Positions 3,432 to 57,246 of a stretch of 64,000 nucleotides of DNA are shown piece by piece. The position numbers and the translations under genes are program-made. Within the stretch, counting starts at the first letter, position 1. Each line of letters begins with the position of its first letter. The notes under the pieces were generated by a model that worked only from the letters and a program-made list of their open reading frames with translations, was not told the origin of the DNA and ran no database searches. This stretch comes from a virus. Location: the IMG/VR virus record IMGVR_UViG_3300045988_182790; one strand, 5' to 3'.

Positions 3432-5083
3432 TAGCAAGCATTTTTTCTCTTTTTAGCGATTTCGTATTTAAGTCTTTCAATGATAATAGATGCTTCCTGT
3501 TTGCTGATATTCAGCATACTGTCGTCAATTTCTCGGCCTGCCTGCTCTGCAAGATTTTTTATAAACTGAATCTGTTTAATTGATGCAAATTGATTGCTCC
3601 AGCTATTCTTTTTGCTCCATAATGGTCTTGCTGCAGCATGATATGTTTCAAGATATTCTTTCACATGGTTAATGTTTGTTTGAATATCTGCTGGCTGATG
3701 CTGGTGTAATACAGCGTTGCCTTTCTTAATTACTGCTGACGTTATTCCTCTGGCATCTGTTTGAGGAATGGTGATTGATATTCCATCTCCAATTGATAGC
3801 CTAAGAGATTGGTCTGGCATTAGGATGAAATTCAAATCGTTTAGGTCAAAATTTTCATCCTCGGCAAAAAGATTGACCTTTTTTGCACCACGAATCCAGC
3901 TAACAGGGGTATCTGTGAGAACCTCAATAAGTTCACCTATTTCTGTAAGTTTACCGCGCAACTTAGTCTTATCTTTTACAAGGTCAGTTCCAAGGCCAAA
4001 TAATGTTGGAGCTGTACATATATCCAATCGCCCTGTAACACCCACACAATCAATTAATGTAAGTGTTTCCTTGCCAGGATATAGTCTTAATCCTCGCCCC
4101 ACTGCCTGATTATAAAGAGACTGATTGTTTGTAGGTCTTGCCATAATAACTGTTTCAATGAGAGGAATATCTGTACCCTCAGTAAAAACCATACAATTAA
4201 CAAGGCAAGGTATCTCTCTGTTCGTAAATCTCTCGATAATTTCAGCCCTATTTGGAGTATCTCCTGTAACTACTATAGAATTAGGAATATGGTCTGCAAT
4301 ACTATTGGCATGAGCAACGTTTGCCGCAAAAATGAGTGTTTGTCCTTTTGCGTACTGATGATATGCGTCGGCAACAGCTTCTACAACTTCTGGACGGTTG
4401 ATTGCATCACACAATTCATTAACTTTGAAATCGCCCATTTGTTTATGAACCTTTCTGAGGTCAAAGCCAACATCTACCTGAATACAATCAATATCAGTTA
4501 AAAATCCGTTTTTAATTGCCCACTTTATGTCTTTGGTATAAATAATGTCATCAAAAATTTTGTTTAAGTCAGCTTTATCGGCTCTATCTGGTGTAGCCGT
4601 AAAGCCAAGATGAACCCTTGGTTTGAAATAATCGTAAATCTTCCTATATGAATTAGCTGTTGCATGATGAGCTTCATCCGTAATAATGGTATCAAAATCG
4701 TATGGGTCAAACTTATCCAGTCTTCTGACAAGTGTTTGCACTGACGCAGACACCACCTCTTCGCCATTTGAATGTTCTTTCCCCTGCTCTATTCCAAATG
4801 AGCAGTCAAAATATTTCTCTGGCTGATGAACAAGCTCTTCTCTATGAGAAAGAATTAAGACTCTGCCTCTTCTTGGTAAATGAGAAAAAATAAATGTCTT
4901 GCCCAGTCCAGTCGCTAATACACACAAATAACTTCCAGCACCAGCATTTTCAATCGCATCAATGCACTCTTTTTGATAAGGTCTTAGTGTACTCTGGTCT
5001 GGAATATGTGGTGGGTCAAATATGATAGTTGATTTTTCCTTTGCGGTTTTGTTTTCACTTCTATTTTTCTTATTCTTTGCCAT
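3431..5083 (-). CDS. SF2 DEAH-box helicase (type III Res/UvsW-like)
   Basis: Motif I ATGLGKTF; motif II ITDEAHHA; motif III FTATP; motif VI QAVGRGLR. Confidence 0.8.
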   Translation of the reverse strand: MAKNKKNRSENKTAKEKSTIIFDPPHIPDQSTLRPYQKECIDAIENAGAGSYLCVLATGLGKTFIFSHLPRRGRVLILSHREELVHQPEKYFDCSFGIEQGKEHSNGEEVVSASVQTLVRRLDKFDPYDFDTIITDEAHHATANSYRKIYDYFKPRVHLGFTATPDRADKADLNKIFDDIIYTKDIKWAIKNGFLTDIDCIQVDVGFDLRKVHKQMGDFKVNELCDAINRPEVVEAVADAYHQYAKGQTLIFAANVAHANSIADHIPNSIVVTGDTPNRAEIIERFTNREIPCLVNCMVFTEGTDIPLIETVIMARPTNNQSLYNQAVGRGLRLYPGKETLTLIDCVGVTGRLDICTAPTLFGLGTDLVKDKTKLRGKLTEIGELIEVLTDTPVSWIRGAKKVNLFAEDENFDLNDLNFILMPDQSLRLSIGDGISITIPQTDARGITSAVIKKGNAVLHQHQPADIQTNINHVKEYLETYHAAARPLWSKKNSWSNQFASIKQIQFIKNLAEQAGREIDDSMLNISKQEASIIIERLKYEIAKKRKNAC

Positions 5084-9108: not shown

Positions 9109-10401
9109 TTATGCTGAAAATTCAATCAAATATTCAATTGTTGCCTGCTCTTCCCTATAAACGATAACTTCATCATTTACAAGGCGGCTCATTGAAGCTT
9201 TTTTTGAACTCATCGCCCACAGACAATCATGGTCTGGAACATTCTGCTCAAAATCAACTACGGTATTTGGCACATAATTGTTGTACTCTGTATCATTATA
9301 TACATCATACACCTTTCCAGTAGCGACTTTGAAAACAGCGAGATACCCTTTCGAACAATCTCCATGTGCCCAGTAAGAGCCGTATGAAGATGTATAACCA
9401 ATGGATTTTCTTGAGTATGGAGCAAAGTAAAGTCCATATCCAAACATCTTACCATGGATAGTTACACCATCTGGATTAAGATATAATCCATTAGTGATGA
9501 TTGACCACCAGTTAGGTGTTCCTGAACCATGAAATAGTCTTGTAACTCCATCACCATTAAGGTCAATTTTCCTGTTTTTACAGTATTCATTAAACCTTTC
9601 TTCTGTGGCAATGTTTTTAACTTTCCATGCTCTTAAGAACCTGCTTCTCTGGTCAGTCATCATTTCTTTAAGCATAGCAACCTCTTCGTCTGAACAAGAG
9701 GTCATTTCAATGCCATTTGTTTCAAGAATTGTCTTACCAGCCTCCTGTTTGTCAGAAGAACGAAGCATTGATTTTAAGAAATCAAGCAAATCCTGTTCCG
9801 CCTGAATAGTGTCACTAAACTGTTCTTTCGACAAACATTTATGCTTGTTCATATTCCTCATAACACGAGGTATAACAGTCCACAGTTCAAGCAGGTATCT
9901 GTTAAACTCTGGAACAGAAAGTTTATCTTTCTTATCCTGCAAGAGCTTAATGATTTCCTGAGCCTTCTGCAAATCTGCATCAGGAATATCAGTGATTTTT
10001 ACCGACGAGTACTGTTCTTCAATTACCTTATTGCAGGCATCAAGAAGAATCTGCACTATATCAGCAACATCTGGGTCATCAATAGGCTTTGTATTAGACG
10101 TAACAACCTCTTTTTCCTCAGCCTCTTCCGTTGCTACGACTTTGTAACCATGGTCAATCTGGCACCAAAAGGTATCATCCCATGTTTCTATAGGACATTT
10201 TCTCGCCTTAGGCGCTTTCCTACCATATTTGCGGCCAATATCACCGCTTATGAGCTGAAAGGTCTTTCCGTCTGAATCAGCCTTCATGGTGACTGTTTTG
10301 TTAACACCGTTCGTGGCATTAAACTTAACCAGCCTCATCTGGATATAGGTCTGGTTTGGAACAGCAATGACTGTTCCGTTTTCATCTTCGTACTGTTTCA
10401 T
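9109..10401 (-). CDS. PARP-like ADP-ribosyltransferase (WGR-like + helical + ART catalytic domain)
   Basis: C-terminal domain aligns with PARP1 catalytic motifs: LFHGSG (H-G-S), GKMFGYGLYFA (GxGxYFA), YSRKSIGY, and C-terminal NDEVIVY...IEYLIEF (compare PARP1 YNEYIVY...LKYLLKL with the catalytic Glu). Confidence 0.75.
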   Translation of the reverse strand: MKQYEDENGTVIAVPNQTYIQMRLVKFNATNGVNKTVTMKADSDGKTFQLISGDIGRKYGRKAPKARKCPIETWDDTFWCQIDHGYKVVATEEAEEKEVVTSNTKPIDDPDVADIVQILLDACNKVIEEQYSSVKITDIPDADLQKAQEIIKLLQDKKDKLSVPEFNRYLLELWTVIPRVMRNMNKHKCLSKEQFSDTIQAEQDLLDFLKSMLRSSDKQEAGKTILETNGIEMTSCSDEEVAMLKEMMTDQRSRFLRAWKVKNIATEERFNEYCKNRKIDLNGDGVTRLFHGSGTPNWWSIITNGLYLNPDGVTIHGKMFGYGLYFAPYSRKSIGYTSSYGSYWAHGDCSKGYLAVFKVATGKVYDVYNDTEYNNYVPNTVVDFEQNVPDHDCLWAMSSKKASMSRLVNDEVIVYREEQATIEYLIEFSA

Positions 10402-20739: not shown

Positions 20740-20936
20740 ATCTTTTTCCTGCTACTCAAAATGTGATTAAATATACTCATCACATCGAGAAATTGTAAGT
20801 TCTCACGAACATTACTTACTGCTTCATCGTGTATGTTCTCGATTGGATAAATCCATATCTACTAACAGGTTCTTGTACACTCCACAGTCGTTAATTCCTG
20901 CGATAGCCCGCAGTACATACTTACGTTTGCGTTTAA

Positions 20937-22115
20937 TTATGCAACTTCGTAAGTTATAGCGTCTCTCAAATTAAGACTTGCATTGAAATCCCTATCTTCA
21001 ACATAGCCACATTTACATCTGTAAACTCTATCTGAAAGCTTTAAATCTTTCTTGATACAGCCACAGCAATGACAAGTTTTTGAAGATGGATAAAATCTAT
21101 CTACAATTCTTAATTCAATACCATTATCATCGCATTTAGCTTTAAGCTTTGTTCTAAACTCATAGAATTTCTGCGATGCAACAGCTTTTGAAAGATGTCT
21201 GTTCTTCATCATTCCTGATACATTCAAATCTTCAATCGTTATGTAAGATGGCTTGGTTTTCACTATCTCAGCGATTGTTTTATTGATATAATCGGTACGG
21301 ATATTATCCATTTTATGATGAAGTTTCTGTACTTTGAGCTTTTGTTTCTGTATATTCGCTCTTTGAGTAGTCTCTCCTTTCTTTAAATTTTCATATTTAC
21401 GAGAAAGACTTCTCTGTTCTCGAATTAATTGTTTTTCCAGTTTCTTAACTTTGCCAGACTTGTTAATGTTCTTGTATTTTTTGCCATCAGAAATGATAGC
21501 AAAGTCCTTCAATCCAAGGTCAATTCCAATTCCTTCATTCGAATTATTGGCAATTTCAGGATTAGGTATTTCTACAAGAACAGATACATAATATCTACCA
21601 GCTTTTATTGAAACTGAACCGCTTTTTATCACATAACCATCTTTTGTCGTTGGGATGTATCCTTTTTCTTTGATACGCACCCAGCCAAGCGTTGGTATGT
21701 TAATTCTATGTCTTTCGCAATAACAATCTTTTGGATTATTTTTGACGAAATACATTTTCACATCGGACTTGTCTTTCTTTTTAAATTTTGGAAAGGCTGC
21801 TTGATGCTTAAAAAATTTTGTAAAAGCGGTACACCCATTTTCGATTGAGCGTTTTACAGACTTTGAGCTAACTTCTTTAATCCAAGAATATTCAGGATGA
21901 TTTGGAAGATATTCGTTGTTAAGCCAAACACTAAATGACTTACCACTCATAAACTTTTCACCTTTTGAGTAAAGCTCTTTGTTGTGAGCAAGATAGAAAT
22001 TGTAAACATATCTACAGGTTCCTATTGTCTTGTTAATTTTGACCTTTTGCTCTTCTGTTGGATTGATTTCTGTCTTGAAGCTCTTTAACTTTGTTGACTT
22101 GTTCATATTTTTCAC
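20937..22115 (-). CDS. tnpB: TnpB (OrfB_IS605, RuvC-like + zinc finger)
   Basis: C-terminal CHCCGC...CKCG zinc finger and DRDFNASLNL RuvC-III motif. Class-A motif at 22149-22161. Confidence 0.8.
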   Translation of the reverse strand: MKNMNKSTKLKSFKTEINPTEEQKVKINKTIGTCRYVYNFYLAHNKELYSKGEKFMSGKSFSVWLNNEYLPNHPEYSWIKEVSSKSVKRSIENGCTAFTKFFKHQAAFPKFKKKDKSDVKMYFVKNNPKDCYCERHRINIPTLGWVRIKEKGYIPTTKDGYVIKSGSVSIKAGRYYVSVLVEIPNPEIANNSNEGIGIDLGLKDFAIISDGKKYKNINKSGKVKKLEKQLIREQRSLSRKYENLKKGETTQRANIQKQKLKVQKLHHKMDNIRTDYINKTIAEIVKTKPSYITIEDLNVSGMMKNRHLSKAVASQKFYEFRTKLKAKCDDNGIELRIVDRFYPSSKTCHCCGCIKKDLKLSDRVYRCKCGYVEDRDFNASLNLRDAITYEVA

Positions 22116-34852: not shown

Positions 34853-35091
34853 GTACCAAACTCCTTTCGTAATTTTTCTATTAGTTCTTCTGCTTCATCT
34901 CCGTAGGCAACAATCTTTACAGGGTTCATAAGGTTTAGACTATATATCCCAAGAATGGAATGGCCATCTACAACATACTTGCCCTGAGATGCGTCTATGG
35001 AGCAGGTAAATTTGTTTACTATGTTTATGAACTCAGCTACTTTTTCAAATTGGTTGATGTAAATAACTGTTTCTGTATTTTTGTGTGTCAT
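34849..35091 (-). CDS. HPr/Crh-like phosphocarrier-fold protein lacking the His15 equivalent
   Basis: KYVVDGHSILGIYSL compares to HPr KSVNLKSIMGVMSLG (Ser46 region). VKIVAYGDEAEELIEKL compares to VTITVDGADEAEGMAAI. No His in the N-terminal loop. Class-B motif CTATAGTGGGTAAA 17 nt upstream. Confidence 0.4.
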   Translation of the reverse strand: MTHKNTETVIYINQFEKVAEFINIVNKFTCSIDASQGKYVVDGHSILGIYSLNLMNPVKIVAYGDEAEELIEKLRKEFGT

Positions 35092-38202: not shown

Positions 38203-40479
38203 TTACATGGCTACGATTTTTACGTCGTACCCATTCTCTGTTAATCTACCAACGACATCTGTAGATACTGTGAACTCTGTCTGACTTATATCAGACATTT
38301 CCTGCGTGTAAATTCTAAAGAAAAGTCCTGTTGTAAGGTCTGTTTCTTTATATCCCTGCGCAAAATTATAGATATTACACATATCTTCAATAGTTGGCGC
38401 AACAGCAAGAATTATTTTTGCCTGCTTATCAAGGACATTAAAGCTGTCAATAACAATCTGGTCTTCACCATTATTATCTGTGTCTTTATGTCCAATGATT
38501 TTTGTGATTGTTCCTGACTGAATGAGATTTTGATATTTCTCATAGGTTTTAGGAAAGCAAACGCCACTGATACTCTCTCCATCTTTGTCAGTGATTGTTA
38601 CAAATGCCATTTTGTCACCTTTTTTGGTTTTAATAACCTTTGCATCAGTGATGATTGCTGCCATTTTGACATTCGCTTTTTCATCTGCATTAACAATATC
38701 ATTGATAATCATGAGATTTGCGGTATCATAATCCTCTAAAGGATTTCCAGTAACCCACATTCCAAGAGCATCTACTTCTAAAAGAAGTCTTTTTTCTGTA
38801 GATAATGGGGCAACGTGTTTCTTTATAATACCTTTCATCTCATCACGAAGAATACTAAGTTCTCCCTGATATTTTCTAAGGTCAAGAACACGTTTGTTTT
38901 CCGCTTTCTCGTTTGTATATGACTGGTTTTCAAGCAAAGATATTTTTTCAATCTTCGTTTTAGCTTTTTTCCATACATCATCATAAGCCACAACATCAGT
39001 TGCACTTATTTCTCTGTTGATTGTGAAATCATCGCAAGCTCCAGAGTTAATAAGTTTTGCCACACAAGAAGCTCCGATTGTTGTTTTTTCAACAATCTCT
39101 TCGATTGAACGGAAATTGCCAGCTTTTTCTCTGTCTGCAACCAATACTTCTGCCGCACTCTTTAACCCTTTGATTGCTTTAAATCCTATTATGATGCCAT
39201 CTTTATATGGGTAATAATCTGCTTTGGATTCATTAATGTCTGGTCTATAAAGAGTGATGTTTGAAGCTTTACAATCAGCAACAAGCTGAGCTGTTTTGTC
39301 TGGTTGCCAGCCTATTATTGCGCACAAATATTCGCGCTTATAATGATATTTAAGCCATGCTGTAATATAAGATACAAGCGCATATGCTGCAGCGTGGGAT
39401 TTATTGAAACCATATTTAGCGAAAGGCATTAACTGGTCAAATAACCAATTTGCATCCTCTTCTGAAATATTTTGAGTTTCTTTACATCCTGTTACGAAAT
39501 CTGGTCTGACAGCGGCCAACTCTTCCTCATGTTTTTTGCTCATATGTCTTCTAACATTATCAGCATCACCCATGTCAAAGCCTGCCGCAGTTGTCATAAT
39601 GCTCATTACCTGCTCCTGATATACTGGGAACCCATATGTTTCAGACAAAATTGGTTCAAGAAAAGGGAATTTCTCCACAAATGGAGATTTTCTTCCAGTA
39701 TTCTTACAGTCAATAATGTCATCAATAAAATCCATTGGGCCAGGTCTGTATACAGAGATAGCAAGGATAATATCTTCGAAACAAGTAGGGTTAAGTCTTG
39801 TTAGCATCCCCTTCATTCCATCAGATTCTACCTGAAATACAAAGTTTGTATCTCCTTTAGCGTAAATATTCTGGAACACTTCTGTTTCAAAAGGAAGATT
39901 ATATGGCTCAATCTTTATGCCCTTTGTTTCGGTGATAATATGCATTGCATCAGTAATAGCATTAAGGTTTTTAAGCCCTAAGAAGTCCATTTTGATAAAT
40001 CCTAACTGGCCTTCGCACTGAACCATATCTGCTTGAACAGCAAATACTTCATTTCCATCATCATCGTTTGATTTCATAAGAGGTATATAATTCTCTACGT
40101 CAGTTCCATCAGAAATAATAATTCCTGCGGCGTGTGTTCCGTATGATGTTATATAGTTCTCAATCATCATTGCATAATCAATGATTGTCAGCGCTGTTTC
40201 ATTGCCGCTAAATTCAGCTTTCAACTCGTTTTCGTAATTAACGAGTTTTGCATTTGGTTCATCACCGATTAATTTACGCATTGACTTGTAAATGGAAATA
40301 TATTTCTTTTTATCTCCGCTCTCTTCAAGTCCAAGAAGCTTTGGTGCGTACTCAAGCGCGCTTTTTGCAGCAAGACGATTTTTTGTCATAATGTTTGCCA
40401 CAGAACGTTCACCGTATTTTTCCTTGACATATTTGATAGTGATTTCTCTTGCATGAGCTGAGAAATCTGTGTCAATATC
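38203..40479 (-). CDS. dnaE: DNA polymerase III alpha (DnaE-type) exon 2
   Basis: Begins DIDTDF (DnaE consensus DIDIDF). Contains GFNKSHAAAYALVSY (DnaE FNKSHSAAYA motif), fingers/thumb regions, and a C-terminal OB-like region. Confidence 0.85.
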   Translation of the reverse strand, partial: DIDTDFSAHAREITIKYVKEKYGERSVANIMTKNRLAAKSALEYAPKLLGLEESGDKKKYISIYKSMRKLIGDEPNAKLVNYENELKAEFSGNETALTIIDYAMMIENYITSYGTHAAGIIISDGTDVENYIPLMKSNDDDGNEVFAVQADMVQCEGQLGFIKMDFLGLKNLNAITDAMHIITETKGIKIEPYNLPFETEVFQNIYAKGDTNFVFQVESDGMKGMLTRLNPTCFEDIILAISVYRPGPMDFIDDIIDCKNTGRKSPFVEKFPFLEPILSETYGFPVYQEQVMSIMTTAAGFDMGDADNVRRHMSKKHEEELAAVRPDFVTGCKETQNISEEDANWLFDQLMPFAKYGFNKSHAAAYALVSYITAWLKYHYKREYLCAIIGWQPDKTAQLVADCKASNITLYRPDINESKADYYPYKDGIIIGFKAIKGLKSAAEVLVADREKAGNFRSIEEIVEKTTIGASCVAKLINSGACDDFTINREISATDVVAYDDVWKKAKTKIEKISLLENQSYTNEKAENKRVLDLRKYQGELSILRDEMKGIIKKHVAPLSTEKRLLLEVDALGMWVTGNPLEDYDTANLMIINDIVNADEKANVKMAAIITDAKVIKTKKGDKMAFVTITDKDGESISGVCFPKTYEKYQNLIQSGTITKIIGHKDTDNNGEDQIVIDSFNVLDKQAKIILAVAPTIEDMCNIYNFAQGYKETDLTTGLFFRIYTQEMSDISQTEFTVSTDVVGRLTENGYDVKIVAM

Positions 40480-40886
40480 CATTCATACCCTCGGTTTCCC
40501 GATATTTTGACTTTTAGGGGACTAGACTATATCTCGCTATTTAAAATAGCATGATGCACTTCGGTTAAGTATTCATCTCTTAACCTACTCTACTCGATTC
40601 GTCCTTAATAGGCTTATTCTCTTATTACTAAGAGTTACATTTATTAGTTCTTTCGATAGTCGTTACACTTTTGTTTATAATGTAATAAACACTTAGCACG
40701 GTATCACCTGCTATCTGTTTCCAGACCGTAGGCTCTCTTACGAAGCGGATTCGTCTATGGATTAAGCTGTATATCTCGTTGTGACGCTTCATACAGCAGT
40801 CTTATCTAGCTTCTACCGTTAGCACGTAACTCTTAGGCTACGCACACCCTTGAAAAAAGGTTCACATCATACGCCCAATATAGTTT
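40480..40886 (-). other. group I self-splicing intron (ORF-less, about 407 nt) in dnaE
   Basis: Exon 1 ends ...RVSMP (cct) and exon 2 starts DIDTDF, restoring the conserved RVSMPDIDxDF. Intron GGGCGT 11 nt in can pair with exon AUGCCU to form P1 with a U·G at the splice site. The last intron nt is G. AGATATAGTC is present (group I S-element-like). Confidence 0.65.
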
Positions 40887-42533
40887 AGGCATACTAACAC
40901 GATGAGGATTAAGAAATCGCTCAAACAAAAGATTGTATTTCATTGGGTCTATTTCTGAAATATCACTTAAATAACAAGCAAGCGAACCTCCCGCACTGCC
41001 TCGGCCTGGCCCGATTTCAGTTGAATTATCTCCATGACTTTTTGCATACTGAATGAAGTCAGCAACCTCGCAGAAATAATCATTAAAGCCCATCTGGTCA
41101 ATGATACTTAACTCGTATTCAAGTCTTTCCCTGTATTCCTTTGAAAATCCGTTTGGATAACGTTTAGGAATACCATCCTCACAAAGCTTACGAAGTCTTT
41201 CCTTTGCATTTTCAAACTTCGGATAATGTTTTGCGTCAGAAAGTTCTGGATTACACATTTTGGCGATAACTTCAATGTTTCCCATCGCTTCATCAACAAC
41301 ATCTTCTGGATAAAGCTGTAATAACATTTCAGCTAATTCATCGCCTGTTTTGAAATACAATTCATCATCGCCTGTAATAGCTTCTCGCCAAGGTCTATCC
41401 TGAGAAATTGACGCCAGATTTTCAAGAAGAAGTCTCTTCTTTGCATCTGTCTTATTTGCCATGTGGACATCATTTGTGGCCACAAGCGGAATATTCATTT
41501 CTCTTGCAAGTTTGACTATTACTGGATATATCATGGCTTCTGTATCTATGCCATGGTACTGAATTTCACAATAAAAGTCTGACTCAAAAACATCTACGAA
41601 AAACTTTGCGTACTTTTTACCCACAATGTAAAGTTCATCATCGTTTTTCTTTCTGGCCTCTAACAATGCAATTGCATCTTTATTCTTCTGAATAGTTTCC
41701 AATTTGGTCTTGTTCTTCGAAATAAGATTTTTGTTTGCTTTGTTATTGTTTTTTATTTCTTGTATTTGAGCCTTAAGAGATGAAATCTCATCCTTTGCTT
41801 CTTGTGCCTGAGCTTTTTCAATCTCAAGCGCTGCAAGCTTGAATTCTCTTTCTTCACTATCTTTGATTTTCTTGATTGCATTTTGTGTGGCACCAAATTT
41901 CTTTGATGCAATCGGAGTTAATTCTGCAATCTTTTCATTGATAGCTAGGATTTGCTTTTCTGCGACAGCATTGGATTCAAGAGCCTGTTGCAATCCGTCT
42001 GACAAATTGGATTTCGAAGATTCAATTCGATTTTGGATTTTTCTAATCTCTTTATCAATAAACAGATTGTAAGATAATGGTGTTGCTAATACTCCGCCAA
42101 CGCAGGCACTTGTTGCAACAACGTGTCCATACCCTAACGAGCCTTTACCGAAAAATTTCTTCAAATCCTTTAATTCGCCTACTGGTCTGCCAGAAATAAA
42201 ATTTCGATTTGTTTCTGATACAAACCTTGAGATTGCCTGAATACCTTCATAATCTTTTGCTAAAAGAACTAGATGTGCTCTCTTTTTTATTATGAAAGTT
42301 TCAGTTACAGGGATTTCAGTGTTGATATAAGCTTCAACACCAAGAATTGGTTTAATGTCATTCTCTTTGGCTGCATTATAAAAATCAAGCCAATTCCAAC
42401 AGCCTCCATGGTCTGTTATGGCTATAGCAGGCATTTTTAATTCTTTAGCCTTGCTGATACATTCTGATACAGTCATAGCTCCGTCATTGAGCGACGCATC
42501 AGTATGTACGTGTAGATTGATATTTGTTTTCAT
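40887..42533 (-). CDS. dnaE: DNA polymerase III alpha (DnaE-type) exon 1 (PHP domain with coiled-coil insertion)
   Basis: PHP motifs HVHTDASLNDGA and ITDHGG. Ends GGSLACYLSDISEIDPMKYNLLFERFLNPHRVSMP. K/E-rich insertion of about 130 aa inside the PHP domain. The track ORF continues into the intron to 40833. Confidence 0.85.
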
Positions 42534-49813: not shown

Positions 49814-50127
49814 CTAAATCTTCCTGCCTGCCATAATTCACAAATGATTGCAATTGGAACAAATACATATATATATCCAAAAGTTATCATATGTGTCTTA
49901 GTGTCTGTGACAGCTGAAATATGAAGAAATGTCATTGCTGCAGTAAGGAATATTGCTGTTTGCAATGATACAACTAATAGTAATAATGATGATGTTATAT
50001 ATGCCATCATAAGAGACAGGATTTCATTTGACGTTAATGAAATCCTATACTCTTTATCATGTTTGATATCATACACACCATAACAAAGCAATCCTGCGTA
50101 TACTGGGAGTAAAATACTGTTAATCAT
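49801..50127 (-). CDS. small polytopic membrane protein, possible TadV/CpaA-type prepilin peptidase
   Basis: Three TM helices with conserved-position Asp (YDIKHD, VTDTK). Sits in the Tad operon, but GGGD-type motif not seen. Confidence 0.35.
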   Translation of the reverse strand: MINSILLPVYAGLLCYGVYDIKHDKEYRISLTSNEILSLMMAYITSSLLLLVVSLQTAIFLTAAMTFLHISAVTDTKTHMITFGYIYVFVPIAIICELWQAGRFSCWT

Positions 50128-50815
50128 TTTTTACCCTTACCATTGTTACGTCATTATCTCCAGCCGCATCATAGAATTTAGCTACATCATCTCGTTCCAT
50201 TTCAATTACGAAATACAATGCTGTCGAAGTAGTATCATTGCTCTGAATTTCTAGGTATGAAGAGTCATAAGATGCAACAATATACACGTTTGAAAGTAAC
50301 AGTTTGTTTGTTTTATGAATTGTATCTTCTTCTGTACCTTCCGCAATATACAAATCTACAACATCTCCAGCTCTGATATAACCGTTTACAGCACTATCTG
50401 CTCTTGAGACTGCGAATGATACCTCTACAGGGTCTTTAATGTTGCTATTGATTGTTGAGGAATCTTTTACTTTTGTAGATGAAAGAATTTCTCCTTTTGA
50501 TACTGGAGTAATAAGTCTTCCTGTGATGTCATCAAGCGATGTATATGTGGTTGTTGTTATAAGAGCGGAATTGACTGACTCAATGCCAAAATAGTCTTTT
50601 ACATTTTTTGAGGAGATAATCGTTCCTTCCTCAATATCTTTTAGTGCATACACGGCTGGAGAAATGTCTTTATCCGTGAGGACATATGCTTGAGCGGCGG
50701 TTAAACCTACCCAAACAACAAGTCCAACCACAAGTGTTACAGCCCATTTTGTCAATGACTTGCTGACGGTATGTTCTTTCTTCTCTTTAGTTCTACTTTT
50801 GCCTTTTTTGAACAT
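50120..50815 (-). CDS. CpaB/RcpC-like pilus assembly protein
   Basis: N-terminal TM anchor plus SAF-like domain (ALKDIEEGTIIS). Confidence 0.5.
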   Translation of the reverse strand: MFKKGKSRTKEKKEHTVSKSLTKWAVTLVVGLVVWVGLTAAQAYVLTDKDISPAVYALKDIEEGTIISSKNVKDYFGIESVNSALITTTTYTSLDDITGRLITPVSKGEILSSTKVKDSSTINSNIKDPVEVSFAVSRADSAVNGYIRAGDVVDLYIAEGTEEDTIHKTNKLLLSNVYIVASYDSSYLEIQSNDTTSTALYFVIEMERDDVAKFYDAAGDNDVTMVRVKND

Positions 50816-54318: not shown

Positions 54319-55710
54319 CTACTCCTTATCTGTATCTTCTACAATATCGCTTTCCTGAACTGGTTCTGATTTATCTTCTGGAACATTTTCGAGTTCTTCA
54401 AGTTCATGTTCTTTTGAGAGCTTGTATTCAATTTCAGCCAGTTCCTCTTTTTCAGCATCATTTGGTTTATAATTTAGGATTGTAGACTCCTCTGGATGGC
54501 GTCTATCATACACTGTGTCATAAATTATGGAGTAGGTATCACCTGATGTATCAAGGCCTCTAATTTCAGAAATTTCTTCTATTTTATAATTCTTCATAAA
54601 GATAACCACTTCCATAGCAGAAAGCATTGTGAGAACTTCATTCATTGTGTACCCTGTTGCCTGCATAATATAGTCAGCAAGCTTATACATAGCATCCTTT
54701 GAACTTTTACCGTGTACAGATGTCCAACATTTATGTCCTGTATATGCAGCCATGGCAAAGCTTTTTGCTTCCATACCCTTAATCTCACCAATCATGTAAT
54801 AATCGTTATCTGTGAGAAGACCATTTCTTGCAATATCTGCAAGTTCATAGCTGACTTTTCCCTCAGTACTTGCATTGACAGGTGATTGATACATAAAGTC
54901 TGGATGGTCACTAAATAACTCGGCACTTTCCTGAGCAATAAGTCCAGAATAAATAGTTGGAATATTATCAATCTCTGCATTCATTAAAGTAGATTTTCCT
55001 GATGCACCCTTTCCAGTGTAAATAATTCCACTTGAACACTTTGCTTTTATTTCCAAATATGGAACAAGCTCAGGTGGGAACATTTTTGCTTCTATCAGAT
55101 TATTCATATCCTTTTTGCGCTTAAGGATTTTTCTAATCTGGATTACTGGTAATTTACTTTCGTTGATGATACCGCCAGTAATATTAAAACGAAGTCTTGC
55201 GTGTTCATTATTATCAACGTCAGTAAATACACGAATAGCATTGGCATCAGTTAGTGATACTCCATTCTTCGAACAGACATTATCAATAAAACTGATATAA
55301 TCTGCTCTATCAATAAACTTAACGTTTGTAGCCTTTCGTTCGCCCTTTCGTTTAAGTCTGATATGCCCCTCGTCATAAATCTTGATATCAGAAATATCAT
55401 CATCGGCCAAAAAGTCTTCCAAAATGTAATAACCCCAAATTCGCTTGTCTAATCGCTTGAGGGTATCTTCAATTTGAGCTTCATCGCAAGTTACTGTTTG
55501 CAAATGTTTTCTCATCATTTTGAAGAATTCGTCTTTTGAGATGATATTCCTCTGAATGTTTGCGAGGTAATTACGGTCTGGCGCACTGGCATAATCAATT
55601 GCATACTTGAACAAGTCCCCTTCGTATCGTTCTACTGGTTCATTTTCAATTGTTACCTCTTTTTTCTGTTTCTTGAAAAAATTAAACATAAAACTTTTTT
55701 GTCCTTTCAT
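54319..55710 (-). CDS. CpaF/TadA-type secretion ATPase (VirB11/GspE superfamily)
   Basis: Walker A TGKGASGKST, Walker B-Asp box DNDYYMIGEIKGMEA, His box GHKCWTSVHG. Confidence 0.85.
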   Translation of the reverse strand: MKGQKSFMFNFFKKQKKEVTIENEPVERYEGDLFKYAIDYASAPDRNYLANIQRNIISKDEFFKMMRKHLQTVTCDEAQIEDTLKRLDKRIWGYYILEDFLADDDISDIKIYDEGHIRLKRKGERKATNVKFIDRADYISFIDNVCSKNGVSLTDANAIRVFTDVDNNEHARLRFNITGGIINESKLPVIQIRKILKRKKDMNNLIEAKMFPPELVPYLEIKAKCSSGIIYTGKGASGKSTLMNAEIDNIPTIYSGLIAQESAELFSDHPDFMYQSPVNASTEGKVSYELADIARNGLLTDNDYYMIGEIKGMEAKSFAMAAYTGHKCWTSVHGKSSKDAMYKLADYIMQATGYTMNEVLTMLSAMEVVIFMKNYKIEEISEIRGLDTSGDTYSIIYDTVYDRRHPEESTILNYKPNDAEKEELAEIEYKLSKEHELEELENVPEDKSEPVQESDIVEDTDKE

Positions 55711-55974: not shown

Positions 55975-57246
55975 TTATGACAACCTTATTCGTAACGGAC
56001 TTGCCAATAGCCCACTAGACAGTTTTTCACAAGTGAAGCCCTGCTTACCTTTCCTTAATATGTTATATGCACCATTTACATCTGCATTGAGAATTATGCC
56101 ATTTTTGCTTTGATACAAACCTCTCTTGATTCGTTTACCACTAAATTCCTTTGTATATGGTTGTTCGAATTTGTACTCAGGTAATTCATCATTATCCAAG
56201 AAGCTGCTCTTACTTGTGTAGCTTTCCTCTACTTCTTTGTATTCAACCCCATACTTCCAACATAAGAATTGCAGCTGTTCTCTCAAAATACCAAATGGTA
56301 CCTGTGTAAAGTTTTGATTATTCTGCTTTCCTATGTTTACAAAACGTTTGAAGTCCTTATTATATCCTACAATTAAAGTTCCTATATCATTGGCTAAACA
56401 CTGGTTTATAATGTATCTAGCAGTCTTTTTAATACAGTCATTAACCTGATTATTTCTCTTAGTAGTAAGTCTTTGAATACGATTTGTAGTAACTTTAGAA
56501 GTCTTTTGTTGTTTCATAGCAATAGAGTTATATTTCGCTATCTGCTTATTCCAATACTGGTTGATTGATTTAATCCTACGACCATCCATAATGAATGGTG
56601 TCATTATATTAGAAACACAGGTAGCAAGATTTTCTACTCCTATATCTATAGCCATAACCTTATTAGTATCTAAAGTTCTGATTTCTTGTTCTACAACATA
56701 GATATACTGCACTTTAAAATACTTTCCATTACCACAAGGAAGTATTCTAACTTCTTTAATTGTCTTATTTTGTAATCTTTCAGGGAACGGTATCTTTATA
56801 TCATCTTTGTAATTCTTTAATTTTCGATACTCTCTGCTCATTGGTATTTTGAAATATCCATCTTTAATAGATATGGCATTAGTAGACAGCACAAGGTTAA
56901 AAAGTCCACCTTTCTTGCGATAATTTGGAATTTTAACATCATTGTAACGATATTCACCTTGCTTACACTTTTTAAGTAAGTTGAAGAATGACTTAAAAGA
57001 CCTATCTACTACTTTCATAGTCTGTTGCGCAACACCAGCTTGCAACAATCCGTAGTTTTCATTATCCTTACATTCGTGATAGTTGCTTTCATAAGTTAAA
57101 AACTTATTTTGAGCAAAGAAATATTGTCTAATGTTGTAAAGTGCTACATTGTAAAGGTTATTAGAATACTGGCATAATTCTGTAAGTATTTGATGTTGCT
57201 CTTTTGTTAGACCACGAATTACATTACTTTGTACTGCATATTCCAT
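55975..57246 (-). CDS. tnpB: TnpB-like RuvC-fold protein lacking zinc-finger cysteines
   Basis: OrfB_IS605-like N-terminus, RuvC-III-like ADVNGAYNILRKG. The usual CxxC...CxxC region is absent. Downstream hairpin CCCGATGCTTTAGCATCGTGGG. Confidence 0.65.
   Translation of the reverse strand: MEYAVQSNVIRGLTKEQHQILTELCQYSNNLYNVALYNIRQYFFAQNKFLTYESNYHECKDNENYGLLQAGVAQQTMKVVDRSFKSFFNLLKKCKQGEYRYNDVKIPNYRKKGGLFNLVLSTNAISIKDGYFKIPMSREYRKLKNYKDDIKIPFPERLQNKTIKEVRILPCGNGKYFKVQYIYVVEQEIRTLDTNKVMAIDIGVENLATCVSNIMTPFIMDGRRIKSINQYWNKQIAKYNSIAMKQQKTSKVTTNRIQRLTTKRNNQVNDCIKKTARYIINQCLANDIGTLIVGYNKDFKRFVNIGKQNNQNFTQVPFGILREQLQFLCWKYGVEYKEVEESYTSKSSFLDNDELPEYKFEQPYTKEFSGKRIKRGLYQSKNGIILNADVNGAYNILRKGKQGFTCEKLSSGLLASPLRIRLS

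What the first reader, a model, noticed from the sequence alone, without database searches (positions are those of the whole stretch)
40480..40886. ORF-less group I intron splitting a DnaE-type polymerase III alpha gene
The two adjacent minus-strand ORFs are the N-terminal PHP/exon-1 part and the catalytic/exon-2 part of DnaE. Exon 1 ends at ...FLNPHRVSMP and exon 2 begins DIDTDF. Joining them recreates the universally conserved RVSMPDIDxDF junction. The 407-nt intervening sequence has no ORF. It starts after a U, and an internal guide GGGCGU 11 nt into the intron can pair with the exon end AUGCCU to give the U·G wobble. It ends in G and carries an AGATATAGTC S-like element. Introns in replicative polymerase genes are a hallmark of phage genomes, and a DnaE-borne intron without a homing endonuclease is uncommon.
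Basis: partly seen in the sequence, partly recalled or inferred. Interest (0 to 1): 0.7.

Follow-up and report, generated by a model that had tools for sequence, protein, structure and literature searches.

The report
ORF-less group I intron in DnaE
A 407-base self-splicing-type (group I) intron with no gene of its own interrupts a DNA polymerase III alpha gene exactly at its catalytic motif; it is real, but it is one more member of a widespread phage intron family.

Summary
Window 40887-42533(-) and 38203-40479(-) are two halves of one DnaE gene. Pfam PF07733 stops at profile position 102 in the first half and resumes at 103 in the second. The 407 nt between them (40480-40886, minus strand) has no credible ORF.

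Rfam's group I model finds nothing here, even at E<=10. The interpretation still holds, for four reasons:
- The spacer is homologous to annotated phage introns. One is an HNH-carrying intron at the same DnaE site in Enterococcus phage EF1.
- A hand-drawn P1-P9 structure is 91.6% paired across 17 relatives, against 33-41% for slid controls. 46 of 69 pairs show changes on both sides.
- The U.G 5' splice site, the terminal G and a short P10 are all present.
- 39 related genes run uninterrupted through ...MPDIDTDF....

The J6/7-P7-P7.1-P7.2-P3'-P8 half is collinear with the self-splicing Twort introns. The 5' half is atypical: P3 follows P1 directly and two hairpins sit before J3/4. This probably explains the Rfam miss.

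ORF-less copies at this site are not rare: 3 of about 10 lineages.

Verdict: new member of a known kind, modest interest.

The parts
40887..42533 (-). DnaE exon 1. Contains the PHP domain and the first 102 profile positions of the Pol III alpha catalytic domain. Ends ...FLNPHRVSMP.
   Evidence: PF02811; PF07733 positions 2-102
40480..40886 (-). ORF-less group I intron, 407 nt, inserted between codons (phase 0: CCU|GAU).
38203..40479 (-). DnaE exon 2. Starts DIDTDF. Covers PF07733 positions 103-260, plus the finger, HHH_6 and OB domains, and the stop codon.
40871..40892 (-). P1. Exon AUGCCU (40887-40892) pairs with the internal guide GGGCGU (40871-40876). The U.G wobble sits at the 5' splice site. 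The loop between the two strands carries the P10 guide.
   Evidence: Three of 6 pairs change on both sides across relatives (GCCU/GGGC, GGGU/GCUC, GGCU/GGUC).
40877..40881 (-). P10 guide AUAUU. Pairs with the first five bases of exon 2, GAUAU (40475-40479).
   Evidence: Read from the sequence. 3-5 bp are possible in the other introns at this DnaE site.
40865..40870 (-). P3 5' strand, AUGAUG. Follows P1 directly, with no P2 in between.
   Evidence: helix 2: 6 of 6 pairs change on both sides; 96% of cells paired.
40551..40556 (-). P3 3' strand, CAUCAU. Lies between the conserved GAAGUG and P8.
   Evidence: Same position as Twort P3' (GAAAUG-GGGGAU).
40824..40860 (-). Two peripheral hairpins between the P3 5' strand and J3/4. 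Ha is CCUU/AAGG; Hb is GCGUAGC/GUUACGU. This placement is non-canonical.
   Evidence: helices 3 and 4: 3 of 4 and 6 of 7 pairs change on both sides.
40814..40819 (-). P4 5' strand, ACGGUA. Its partner UACCGU is at 40698-40703.
   Evidence: helix 5: 100% paired, with one double change (L115, UA). L007 has ACAGUA/UACUGU.
40704..40813 (-). Extended P5 domain.
- P5: GAAGC (40809-40813) with GCUUC (40742-40746).
- P5a/P5b hairpin: 40766-40797.
- P5c hairpin UCUG-GAAA-CAGA: 40714-40725.
   Evidence: helices 6-10: P5 3 of 5, P5b 3 of 3, P5c 2 of 4 pairs change on both sides.
40667..40697 (-). P6 (GC/GU) with a short P6a hairpin. Relatives carry their HNH endonuclease ORF in this loop.
   Evidence: The P6 pairs never vary.
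40657..40666 (-). J6/7 plus the P7 5' strand (GUAACGACUA; the 'R' element).
   Evidence: Invariant in all 17 relatives. Twort I2 has GCAACGACUA at the same place.
40563..40656 (-). P7.1 and P7.2, the peripheral elements typical of subgroup IA.
- P7.1 (40594-40656) is expanded here and includes a GUAA-capped hairpin.
- P7.2 is at 40563-40585.
   Evidence: helix 13 (P7.2): 7 of 7 pairs change on both sides. P7.1 was read by eye.
40536..40550 (-). P8 hairpin.
   Evidence: helix 14: 6 of 6 pairs change on both sides.
40524..40535 (-). J8/7 plus the P7 3' strand (GAGAUAUAGUCU; the 'S' element).
   Evidence: Invariant. Forms the P3/P7 pseudoknot.
40488..40520 (-). P9. The outer stem is CCC/GGG. The inner hairpin is UCGG-GAAA-CCGA.
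   Evidence: A GAAA-capped hairpin is present in all 9 introns at this DnaE site, and the outer stem varies compensatorily.
40480..40480 (-). Terminal G (omega-G) at the 3' splice site.
   Evidence: 9 of 9 introns at this site end in G.

Best explanation
The 407-nt spacer is a group I intron with a subgroup-IA-like core of the Twort type. It sits in phase 0 between the Pro and Asp codons of the DnaE catalytic motif ...SMP|DIDTDF.

Inferred mechanism:
1. The gene is transcribed as one pre-mRNA.
2. The intron folds, and its guide GGGCGU pairs with the exon end AUGCCU to form P1 with a U.G wobble.
3. A free guanosine bound in P7 attacks after that U.
4. The adjacent guide AUAUU aligns exon 2 (P10).
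5. The terminal G replaces the cofactor, and the exons are ligated into a 1307-codon DnaE reading frame.

The intron has no homing endonuclease. Relatives carry an HNH gene in the P6 loop. This copy is therefore a streamlined, non-autonomous version. It can spread only vertically, by recombination, or with a nuclease supplied in trans.

Shown here: exon continuity, homology to phage introns, and all core helices with covariation. Inferred only: actual splicing, and whether it needs helper proteins.
For: - Exon junction. It is exact: PF07733 positions 102|103. 39 related loci are uninterrupted through ...MPDIDTDF....
- Homology. blastn of the spacer hits 183 phage records. These include Enterococcus phage EF1/EF5, where 'DNA polymerase III alpha' is split at the same residue pair (RPELP|DVDIDS) by an intron annotated 'HNH homing endonuclease # Phage intron'. 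They also include endonuclease-carrying introns in Clostridium, Enterocloster, Fusobacterium, Staphylococcus and Bacillus phages.
- Distribution. 19 IMG/VR contigs have the same splice-site/guide pattern. 40 fetched loci share the 5' half.
- Covariation. On 17 relatives, 91.6% of cells are paired, against 33-41% with slid partners. 46 of 69 pairs change on both sides. The covariation score is 0.593 against 0.08-0.11, and 0 of 500 shuffles reach it. P3, P7.2 and P8 covary at every pair.
- Splice-site signatures. The terminal G is present in 9 of 9 introns at this site. P9 carries a GAAA loop and a covarying outer stem.
- Link to proven ribozymes. The segment from P4' to P7' is collinear with the experimentally self-splicing Twort orf142 intron 2.
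- Stability. The fold z-score is -2.67.
Against: - Rfam RF00028 gives no hit at the gathering score or at E<=10. The same model scores the Twort introns at 64-101 bits.
- P6 and P7 are invariant, so they carry no covariation evidence.
- The order of 5' elements departs from the canonical P1-P2-P3.
- The alignment used ORF-deleted constructs, and the structure was drawn by hand on these same sequences. This inflates agreement somewhat.
- There is no RNA-level evidence.
- A GAGGG motif followed by AUG lies just before exon 2, so separate translation is formally possible.
Confidence: 0.9

Rival explanations
1. Gene fission. The two DnaE halves are translated as separate polypeptides that assemble. 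The 407 nt would be a structured intergenic spacer that is not spliced.
For: - Gene callers report two genes on the source contig.
- Exon 2 is preceded by AUG, with GAGGG 6 nt upstream.
- A different set of gut-phage DnaE genes really is broken into two ORFs 3 residues upstream of the same motif.
Against: - The AUG and the GGG are the terminal G and the P9 3' strand. Both are conserved for RNA reasons.
- Relatives L136 and L125 end UAG|GAU, with no start codon.
- The break falls inside a strand-level catalytic motif and adds no interaction domains. The truly split genes carry about 50 + 17 extra residues.
- The full group I core with covariation has no purpose in a plain spacer.
Confidence: 0.04
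2. Decayed intron. The sequence descends from a group I intron but no longer splices, so the DnaE gene is a pseudogene on this element.
For: - The endonuclease ORF has been lost.
- P7.1 carries a 50-nt expansion not seen in relatives.
- Rfam does not recognise it.
Against: - Every position that is invariant in the 17-sequence alignment is kept, and every helix is intact in the window copy.
- Both exons are long open frames with full domain sets.
- Other ORF-less copies (L088, L136, L091 group) show the same conservation.
Confidence: 0.05
3. Another kind of intervening element: a group II intron, an intein, or an inserted transposon/IStron.
For: TnpB elements occur elsewhere in the window.
Against: - There is no RF00029 or other Rfam hit in the region.
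- At 407 nt with no ORF, it is too short for a group II intron with an RT gene.
- The exon-1 reading frame hits a stop 17 codons into the spacer (the exon-1 ORF runs on as ...KLYWAYDVNLFSRVCVA*), so it is not an intein.
- There is no IS or TnpB homology in the spacer.
Confidence: 0.01

Closest known systems
HNH-containing intron in the 'DNA polymerase III alpha subunit' gene of Enterococcus phages EF1/EF5 (MF001358, MF001361)
   Same: - Same insertion point, between P and D of the xxP|D(I/V)D catalytic motif.
- Same P1 guide type (UGCCU/GGGCA).
- Same core sequence in the 5' domain (73.5% identity over 210 nt).
- Same P7, P7.2, P8 and P9 layout.
   Different: - EF1 carries an HNH endonuclease gene (CDS 4242-4733, 492 nt) in the P6 loop; the window copy has a 20-nt hairpin there.
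- The window copy has an expanded P7.1.
- The host DnaE-like proteins are highly divergent.
ORF-less and HNH-bearing introns at the same DnaE site in IMG/VR gut-phage contigs (L088, L136; L087, L219, L221, L115, L125 groups)
   Same: - Same site and same family.
- L088 is the nearest relative: identical guide GGGCGU, the same P5a sequence, and also ORF-less.
   Different: - Host DnaE proteins are at most 38% identical to the window's.
- L088 has an extra insertion in P5c and lacks the P7.1 expansion.
Staphylococcus phage Twort orf142 introns (Landthaler & Shub 1999; AF132670; intron 2 ribozyme crystal structure, recalled from memory as PDB 1Y0Q)
   Same: - Collinear P4'-GCUAAG-P6-AAAGUG(C/U)AACGACUAU-P7.1-GUAG-P7.2-GAA(A/G)UG-P3'-P8-GAUAUAGUCU.
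- Subgroup-IA signature: P7.1 and P7.2.
   Different: - Twort has P2 between P1 and P3, and a short P5.
- The window intron has P3 directly after P1, two hairpins before J3/4, and a 110-nt P5 domain.
- RF00028 scores Twort at 64-101 bits and the window intron not at all.
Phage group I introns in DNA polymerase, ribonucleotide reductase and terminase genes generally (T4 td/nrdB/nrdD, SPO1, Bastillevirinae)
   Same: - Insertion at the most conserved catalytic motifs of replication genes.
- A mixture of endonuclease-bearing and ORF-less copies (PMC3984707, PMC11878797).
   Different: The host gene here is a C-family (DnaE) polymerase, not an A- or B-family polymerase.

Membership tests
Group I intron | P1 helix between the 5' exon end and an internal guide, with a U.G wobble at the splice site | tested here: met
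   AUGCCU/GGGCGU in the window. The helix covaries with the exon sequence in relatives inserted at other sites (helix 1).
Group I intron | Conserved core P3-P4-P6-P7-P8, with a P3/P7 pseudoknot, in canonical 5'-3' order | tested here: met
   P3 changes on both sides at 6 of 6 pairs and P8 at 6 of 6. P4 has 1 double change. P6 and P7 are invariant but pairable. P7 encloses the P3 3' strand, which gives the pseudoknot.
Group I intron | Terminal guanosine (omega-G) at the 3' splice site, and a P10 pairing with the 3' exon | tested here: met
   The intron ends in G in all 9 introns at this DnaE site. AUAUU/GAUAU gives a 5-bp P10 adjacent to the P1 guide.
Group I intron | Guanosine-binding P7 (a G-C pair next to a bulged nucleotide) | tested here: inconclusive
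   The P7 sequence A-C(bulge)-GACUA / UAGUC-U is identical to that of the Twort ribozymes. Binding itself cannot be tested in silico.
Group I intron | Match to the curated covariance model Rfam RF00028 at its gathering score | tested here: not met
   No hit at gathering or at E<=10. Control: the Twort introns score 64-101 bits. None of 12 loci holding family members or related annotated phage introns scores at the intron. This is an operational test, not a defining property.
Group I intron | Excision restores an intact host reading frame | tested here: met
   PF07733 profile positions 102|103. Intron-less homologues read ...MPDIDTDF....
Group I intron | GTP-dependent self-splicing | not testable with these tools
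   Needs an in-vitro transcript or RT-PCR.
Subgroup IA (IA2-like, phage type) | P7.1/P7.2 inserted between the P7 5' strand and the P3 3' strand | tested here: met
   P7.2 changes on both sides at 7 of 7 pairs. A P7.1 hairpin is present in most relatives. The segment is collinear with Twort.
Subgroup IA (IA2-like, phage type) | P2 located between P1 and P3 | tested here: not met
   The P3 5' strand (nt 17-22) abuts P1. The two covarying hairpins lie between P3 and J3/4. A possible 4-bp inner P3 (UGCU/AGUG) that would restore the canonical order is compatible in 15 of 17 sequences but shows no double changes.
Mobile (homing) group I intron | Intron-encoded homing endonuclease | tested here: not met
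   No ORF with a family match lies inside the intron. No homologue of the family's HNH proteins occurs anywhere in the 64-kb window (best E 0.59). The small neighbouring ORFs contain no HNH or GIY-YIG domain.
Intein | In-frame insertion translated with the host protein | tested here: not met
   The exon-1 frame reaches a stop 17 codons after the junction.

The most novel reading that the evidence does not exclude
This intron and its 40 or more relatives may form a structurally distinct and undescribed sub-class of phage group I introns.

Their features:
- The P3 5' strand follows P1 directly.
- Two P2-like hairpins are inserted before J3/4.
- P5 is a large three-way domain.
- The curated models (RF00028) miss them entirely.
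- They have specialised on the catalytic-aspartate motif of C-family (DnaE) polymerases in gut phages.
Probability: 0.3. Interest if true: 0.45.

Novelty: new member of a known kind. Interest (0 to 1): 0.3.

Why it matters
- Annotation. The two 'genes' should be joined into one 1307-residue DnaE. Gene callers split it, and Rfam-based pipelines will not flag the intron.
- Detection gap. The case documents a sizeable phage intron family. Two pattern scans found 19 viral contigs with the DnaE-site pattern, and 40 fetched loci share the 5' half. The standard group I model is blind to all of them, which supports published concerns that current models under-detect phage introns (PMC11878797).
- Biology. 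It adds C-family polymerases to the list of replication enzymes whose catalytic motifs serve as homing sites. The same gene family also hosts a second intron site, an HNH intein and a natural split. It is therefore a convenient system for studying competition among selfish elements.

Tried and rejected
- Rfam. A gathering scan of the whole window and an E<=10 scan of 40300-41050 gave no group I or group II hit. This was rejected as evidence against the intron after the controls.
- Close relatives. Megablast of 30-50 kb of the window against phages found none. tblastn of exon 2 against phages and plasmids gave at most 35% identity, so the replicon could not be identified.
- Replicon type. PHROGs on ten large ORFs gave almost nothing.
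- Other introns in the window. The family HMM finds only this one. Other ATATAGTC matches, such as the one at 34945, lie in small coding ORFs.
- A free-standing endonuclease ('collaborative homing'). None was found.
- Alternative P3. A pairing of GUGC next to J3/4 with GAAGUG is compatible but lacks compensatory changes, so it stays undecided.
- Literature. Searches for introns in phage dnaE and for 'P3.1/P3.2' nomenclature returned nothing specific.
- Cellular genomes. The DnaE-site pattern gave 0 hits in species-representative genomes. The family pattern gave 2 MAG contigs.
- The 54-aa ORF inside the intron. It was rejected as a gene: no family match, and it overlaps conserved helices.

Full report
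**What is in the sequence**

On the minus strand, an ORF ending ...FLNPHRVSMP runs to base 40887. Its last codon is CCU, after which the frame reads on for 17 codons to a stop. A second ORF begins at 40482 with AUG followed by GAU AUU GAC ACA GAU UUC.

Pfam assigns the upstream part to PHP plus positions 2-102 of the 260-position Pol III alpha catalytic profile PF07733. The downstream part covers positions 103-260, then the finger, HHH_6 and OB-fold domains. The two ORFs are therefore one DnaE gene, cut between adjacent profile positions inside the ...SMP|DIDTDF catalytic motif.

The 407 nt between them (40886 to 40480) hold only a 54-aa frame with no family match.

**The standard test fails, and why that is not decisive**

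Rfam 15 finds no group I or group II match in the window at gathering scores. It also finds none at E<=10 in 40300-41050.

Two controls show the test is uninformative here:
- The same model scores the three experimentally self-splicing Twort orf142 introns at 63.6, 97.4 and 100.9 bits.
- It misses every relative of the window intron in 12 loci. These include introns annotated as such in Enterococcus phage EF1, Fusobacterium phage Fnu1, Bacillus phage Jayan and a Staphylococcus phage. The single hit is an unrelated intron elsewhere on contig L095.

A recent survey of phage introns also notes that Rfam and GISSD models can fail on phage variants, and sometimes recognise only one side of an intron (PMC11878797).

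**Homology**

blastn of the spacer with short exon flanks hits 183 phage records.

The most telling are Enterococcus phages EF1 and EF5. There, two CDSs annotated 'DNA polymerase III alpha subunit' flank a CDS annotated 'HNH homing endonuclease # Phage intron'. The first exon ends RPELP and the second starts DVDIDS, the same residue pair as in the window. The intron starts AAACUUAUUGGGCA..., against AAACUAUAUUGGGCG... here.

Other hits are endonuclease-bearing interruptions of genes in Clostridium, Enterocloster, Fusobacterium, Staphylococcus and Bacillus phages.

Pattern scans of IMG/VR gave the following:
- 13 contigs with the P4-P5 core.
- More than 120 contigs with the P7...P7' core.
- 19 contigs with the DnaE splice-site/guide pattern.

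The window's first 200 intron nucleotides match 40 of the fetched loci at E 1e-24 to 1e-4.

About ten lineages have an intron at the MP|DID or LP|DxD site. The window, L088 and L136 lack an ORF. The others carry an HNH gene in the P6 loop.

39 related DnaE loci are uninterrupted through ...MPDIDTDF....

**Structure**

I removed the P6 loop (ORF or hairpin) from 17 non-identical relatives and aligned them. I then scored a hand-drawn structure on that alignment.

| Measure | Structure as drawn | Controls |
|---|---|---|
| Cells forming a standard pair | 91.6% | 33-41% (3' partner slid 1-3 columns) |
| Covariation score | 0.593 | 0.08-0.11 |

Of 69 pairs, 46 show changes on both sides. No shuffle out of 500 reaches any measure.

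Support by helix (pairs changed on both sides):
- P1: 3 of 6. The guide tracks the exon: GCCU/GGGC, GGGU/GCUC, GGCU/GGUC.
- P3: 6 of 6.
- P4: one double change in the alignment, plus ACAGUA/UACUGU in Fnu1.
- P5: 3 of 5.
- P5b: 3 of 3.
- P5c: 2 of 4.
- P7.2: 7 of 7.
- P8: 6 of 6.
- P6 and P7: invariant, so they are neither supported nor contradicted.

At the 3' end, all nine introns at this DnaE site end in G. All have a GAAA-capped P9 hairpin inside an outer stem that varies compensatorily: CCC/GGG, CCUU/AAGG, CUUUAA/UUAAAG. The bases just 5' of the P1 guide (AUAUU) can pair with the start of exon 2 (GAUAU) as P10.

The minimum-free-energy fold is more stable than shuffles (z = -2.67).

Caveats: the structure was derived from these same sequences, and the alignment is MAFFT on edited constructs. 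The absolute numbers are therefore somewhat flattering. The slid-partner control and the number of distinct pair types still make chance very unlikely.

**Relation to known ribozymes**

From the P4 3' strand onward the window intron is collinear with Twort intron 2.

- Window: UACCGU-GCUAAG-[P6a]-AAAGUGUAACGACUAU-[P7.1]-GUAG-[P7.2]-GAAGUG-CAUCAU(P3')-[P8]-GAGAUAUAGUCU
- Twort: UCCUGA-GCUAAG-[P6a]-AAAGUGCAACGACUAU-[P7.1]-GUAG-[P7.2]-GAAAUG-GGGGAU(P3')-[P8]-GUGAUAUAGUCU

The family HMM aligns across this whole stretch. This places the intron with the subgroup-IA phage introns that carry P7.1 and P7.2.

The 5' half differs:
- The strand that pairs with P3' is the six bases immediately after P1.
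- The two well-supported hairpins Ha and Hb lie between that strand and the J3/4-like UAA in front of P4.
- P5 is a 110-nt domain with three helices.

A short additional pairing (UGCU/AGUG) could extend P3 across the hairpin junction and restore a canonical order. It is compatible in 15 of 17 sequences but has no compensatory changes. I regard this rearranged periphery as the probable reason for the Rfam miss, but I did not test that directly.

**Rivals**

Separate translation of exon 2 is suggested by the AUG and an upstream GAGGG. However, these bases are the terminal G and the 3' strand of P9. Relatives L136 and L125 end UAG|GAU, with no start codon.

A group of gut-phage DnaE genes is genuinely broken three residues upstream of the same motif. 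Those carry about 50 and 17 extra residues at the break; the window gene has none.

A splicing-dead remnant is unlikely. The window copy keeps every invariant position and every helix, and both exons are intact.

Inteins, group II introns and transposon insertions are excluded by the stop codons, the size, and the lack of any matching signature.

**Context**

The window comes from a 100.3-kb metagenomic contig (ENA ERZ27229639). It has no close relative in the phage or plasmid collections. Nearby genes are a DnaG-type zinc-ribbon protein, helicases, PhoH, an AAA ATPase, two TnpB genes, a PARP-domain protein and Tad-pilus-like genes. No virion gene was recognised, so 'phage' is plausible but unproven.

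No homing endonuclease related to those of the intron family is present in the 64 kb. The DnaE-site pattern is absent from 185,579 species-representative cellular genomes. The family core pattern occurs in only two MAG contigs. This is consistent with a virus-borne or mobile-element-borne family.

**Verdict**

It is a new member of a known kind: a streamlined, ORF-less copy of a phage group I intron family that targets the catalytic motif of DnaE. The endonuclease-bearing form is already annotated in GenBank.

The modest points of interest are the family's invisibility to RF00028 and its non-canonical 5' architecture.

Noticed in passing
window 20816-20888 (-) and 20937-22115 (-); also 55975-57246 (-): The only Rfam hit in the window is RAGATH-18 (72.8 bits). 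It lies immediately 3' of a TnpB gene (OrfB_IS605 plus Cas12f1-like TNB domains). It is probably the guide (omega/reRNA) scaffold of an IS605-family element. A second TnpB gene lies at 55975-57246.
   Followed up: partly
L050 1762-3357 and 3362-6262 (and about 45 similar IMG/VR loci, L041-L066 and L074-L086): DnaE is split into two ORFs 3 residues upstream of the same MPDIDTDF motif. About 50 extra C-terminal residues (...VVMINGEKEISGNAF...AKELKEGDELINE) and 17 extra N-terminal residues flank the break. This resembles a Hint-like or split-intein arrangement. The second ORF also carries a full HNH-containing intein in the FNK|SH motif.
   Followed up: partly
L091, L093, L094, L096 (ORF-less); L090, L151, L153 (HNH-bearing): The same intron family also occupies a second DnaE site (...YMFG|...GYLCAYLRYYYP...). 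Its P1 guide is changed to match (UGGGU/GCUCA). This shows retargeting of one ribozyme scaffold within the same host gene.
   Followed up: partly
window 40619-40634 (-): The 16-nt GUAA-capped hairpin CUCUUAGUAAUAAGAG, inside the expanded P7.1, is identical to the P6a hairpin of Twort orf142 intron 2 (L227, about 1164-1179). It looks like a shared modular hairpin placed at a different position.
   Followed up: no
L095 10591-10883 (-): A different group I intron, just above the Rfam gathering score (50.2 against 50), lies about 1 kb from the family intron on the same viral contig.
   Followed up: no
window 50120-50815, 54319-55710, 9109-10401 (all -): The same element encodes an RcpC/CpaB-like protein, a T2SSE (CpaF/TadA-like) ATPase and a PARP catalytic-domain protein. 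No virion genes were recognised, so whether the contig is a phage, a plasmid or a phage-plasmid is open.
   Followed up: partly
window 41200-42050 (-), DnaE exon 1 residues about 170-445: About 270 residues lie between the PHP match (7-171) and the catalytic-domain match (from 446). They include a long Lys/Glu/Gln-rich segment that looks coiled-coil-like, with no Pfam assignment.
   Followed up: no
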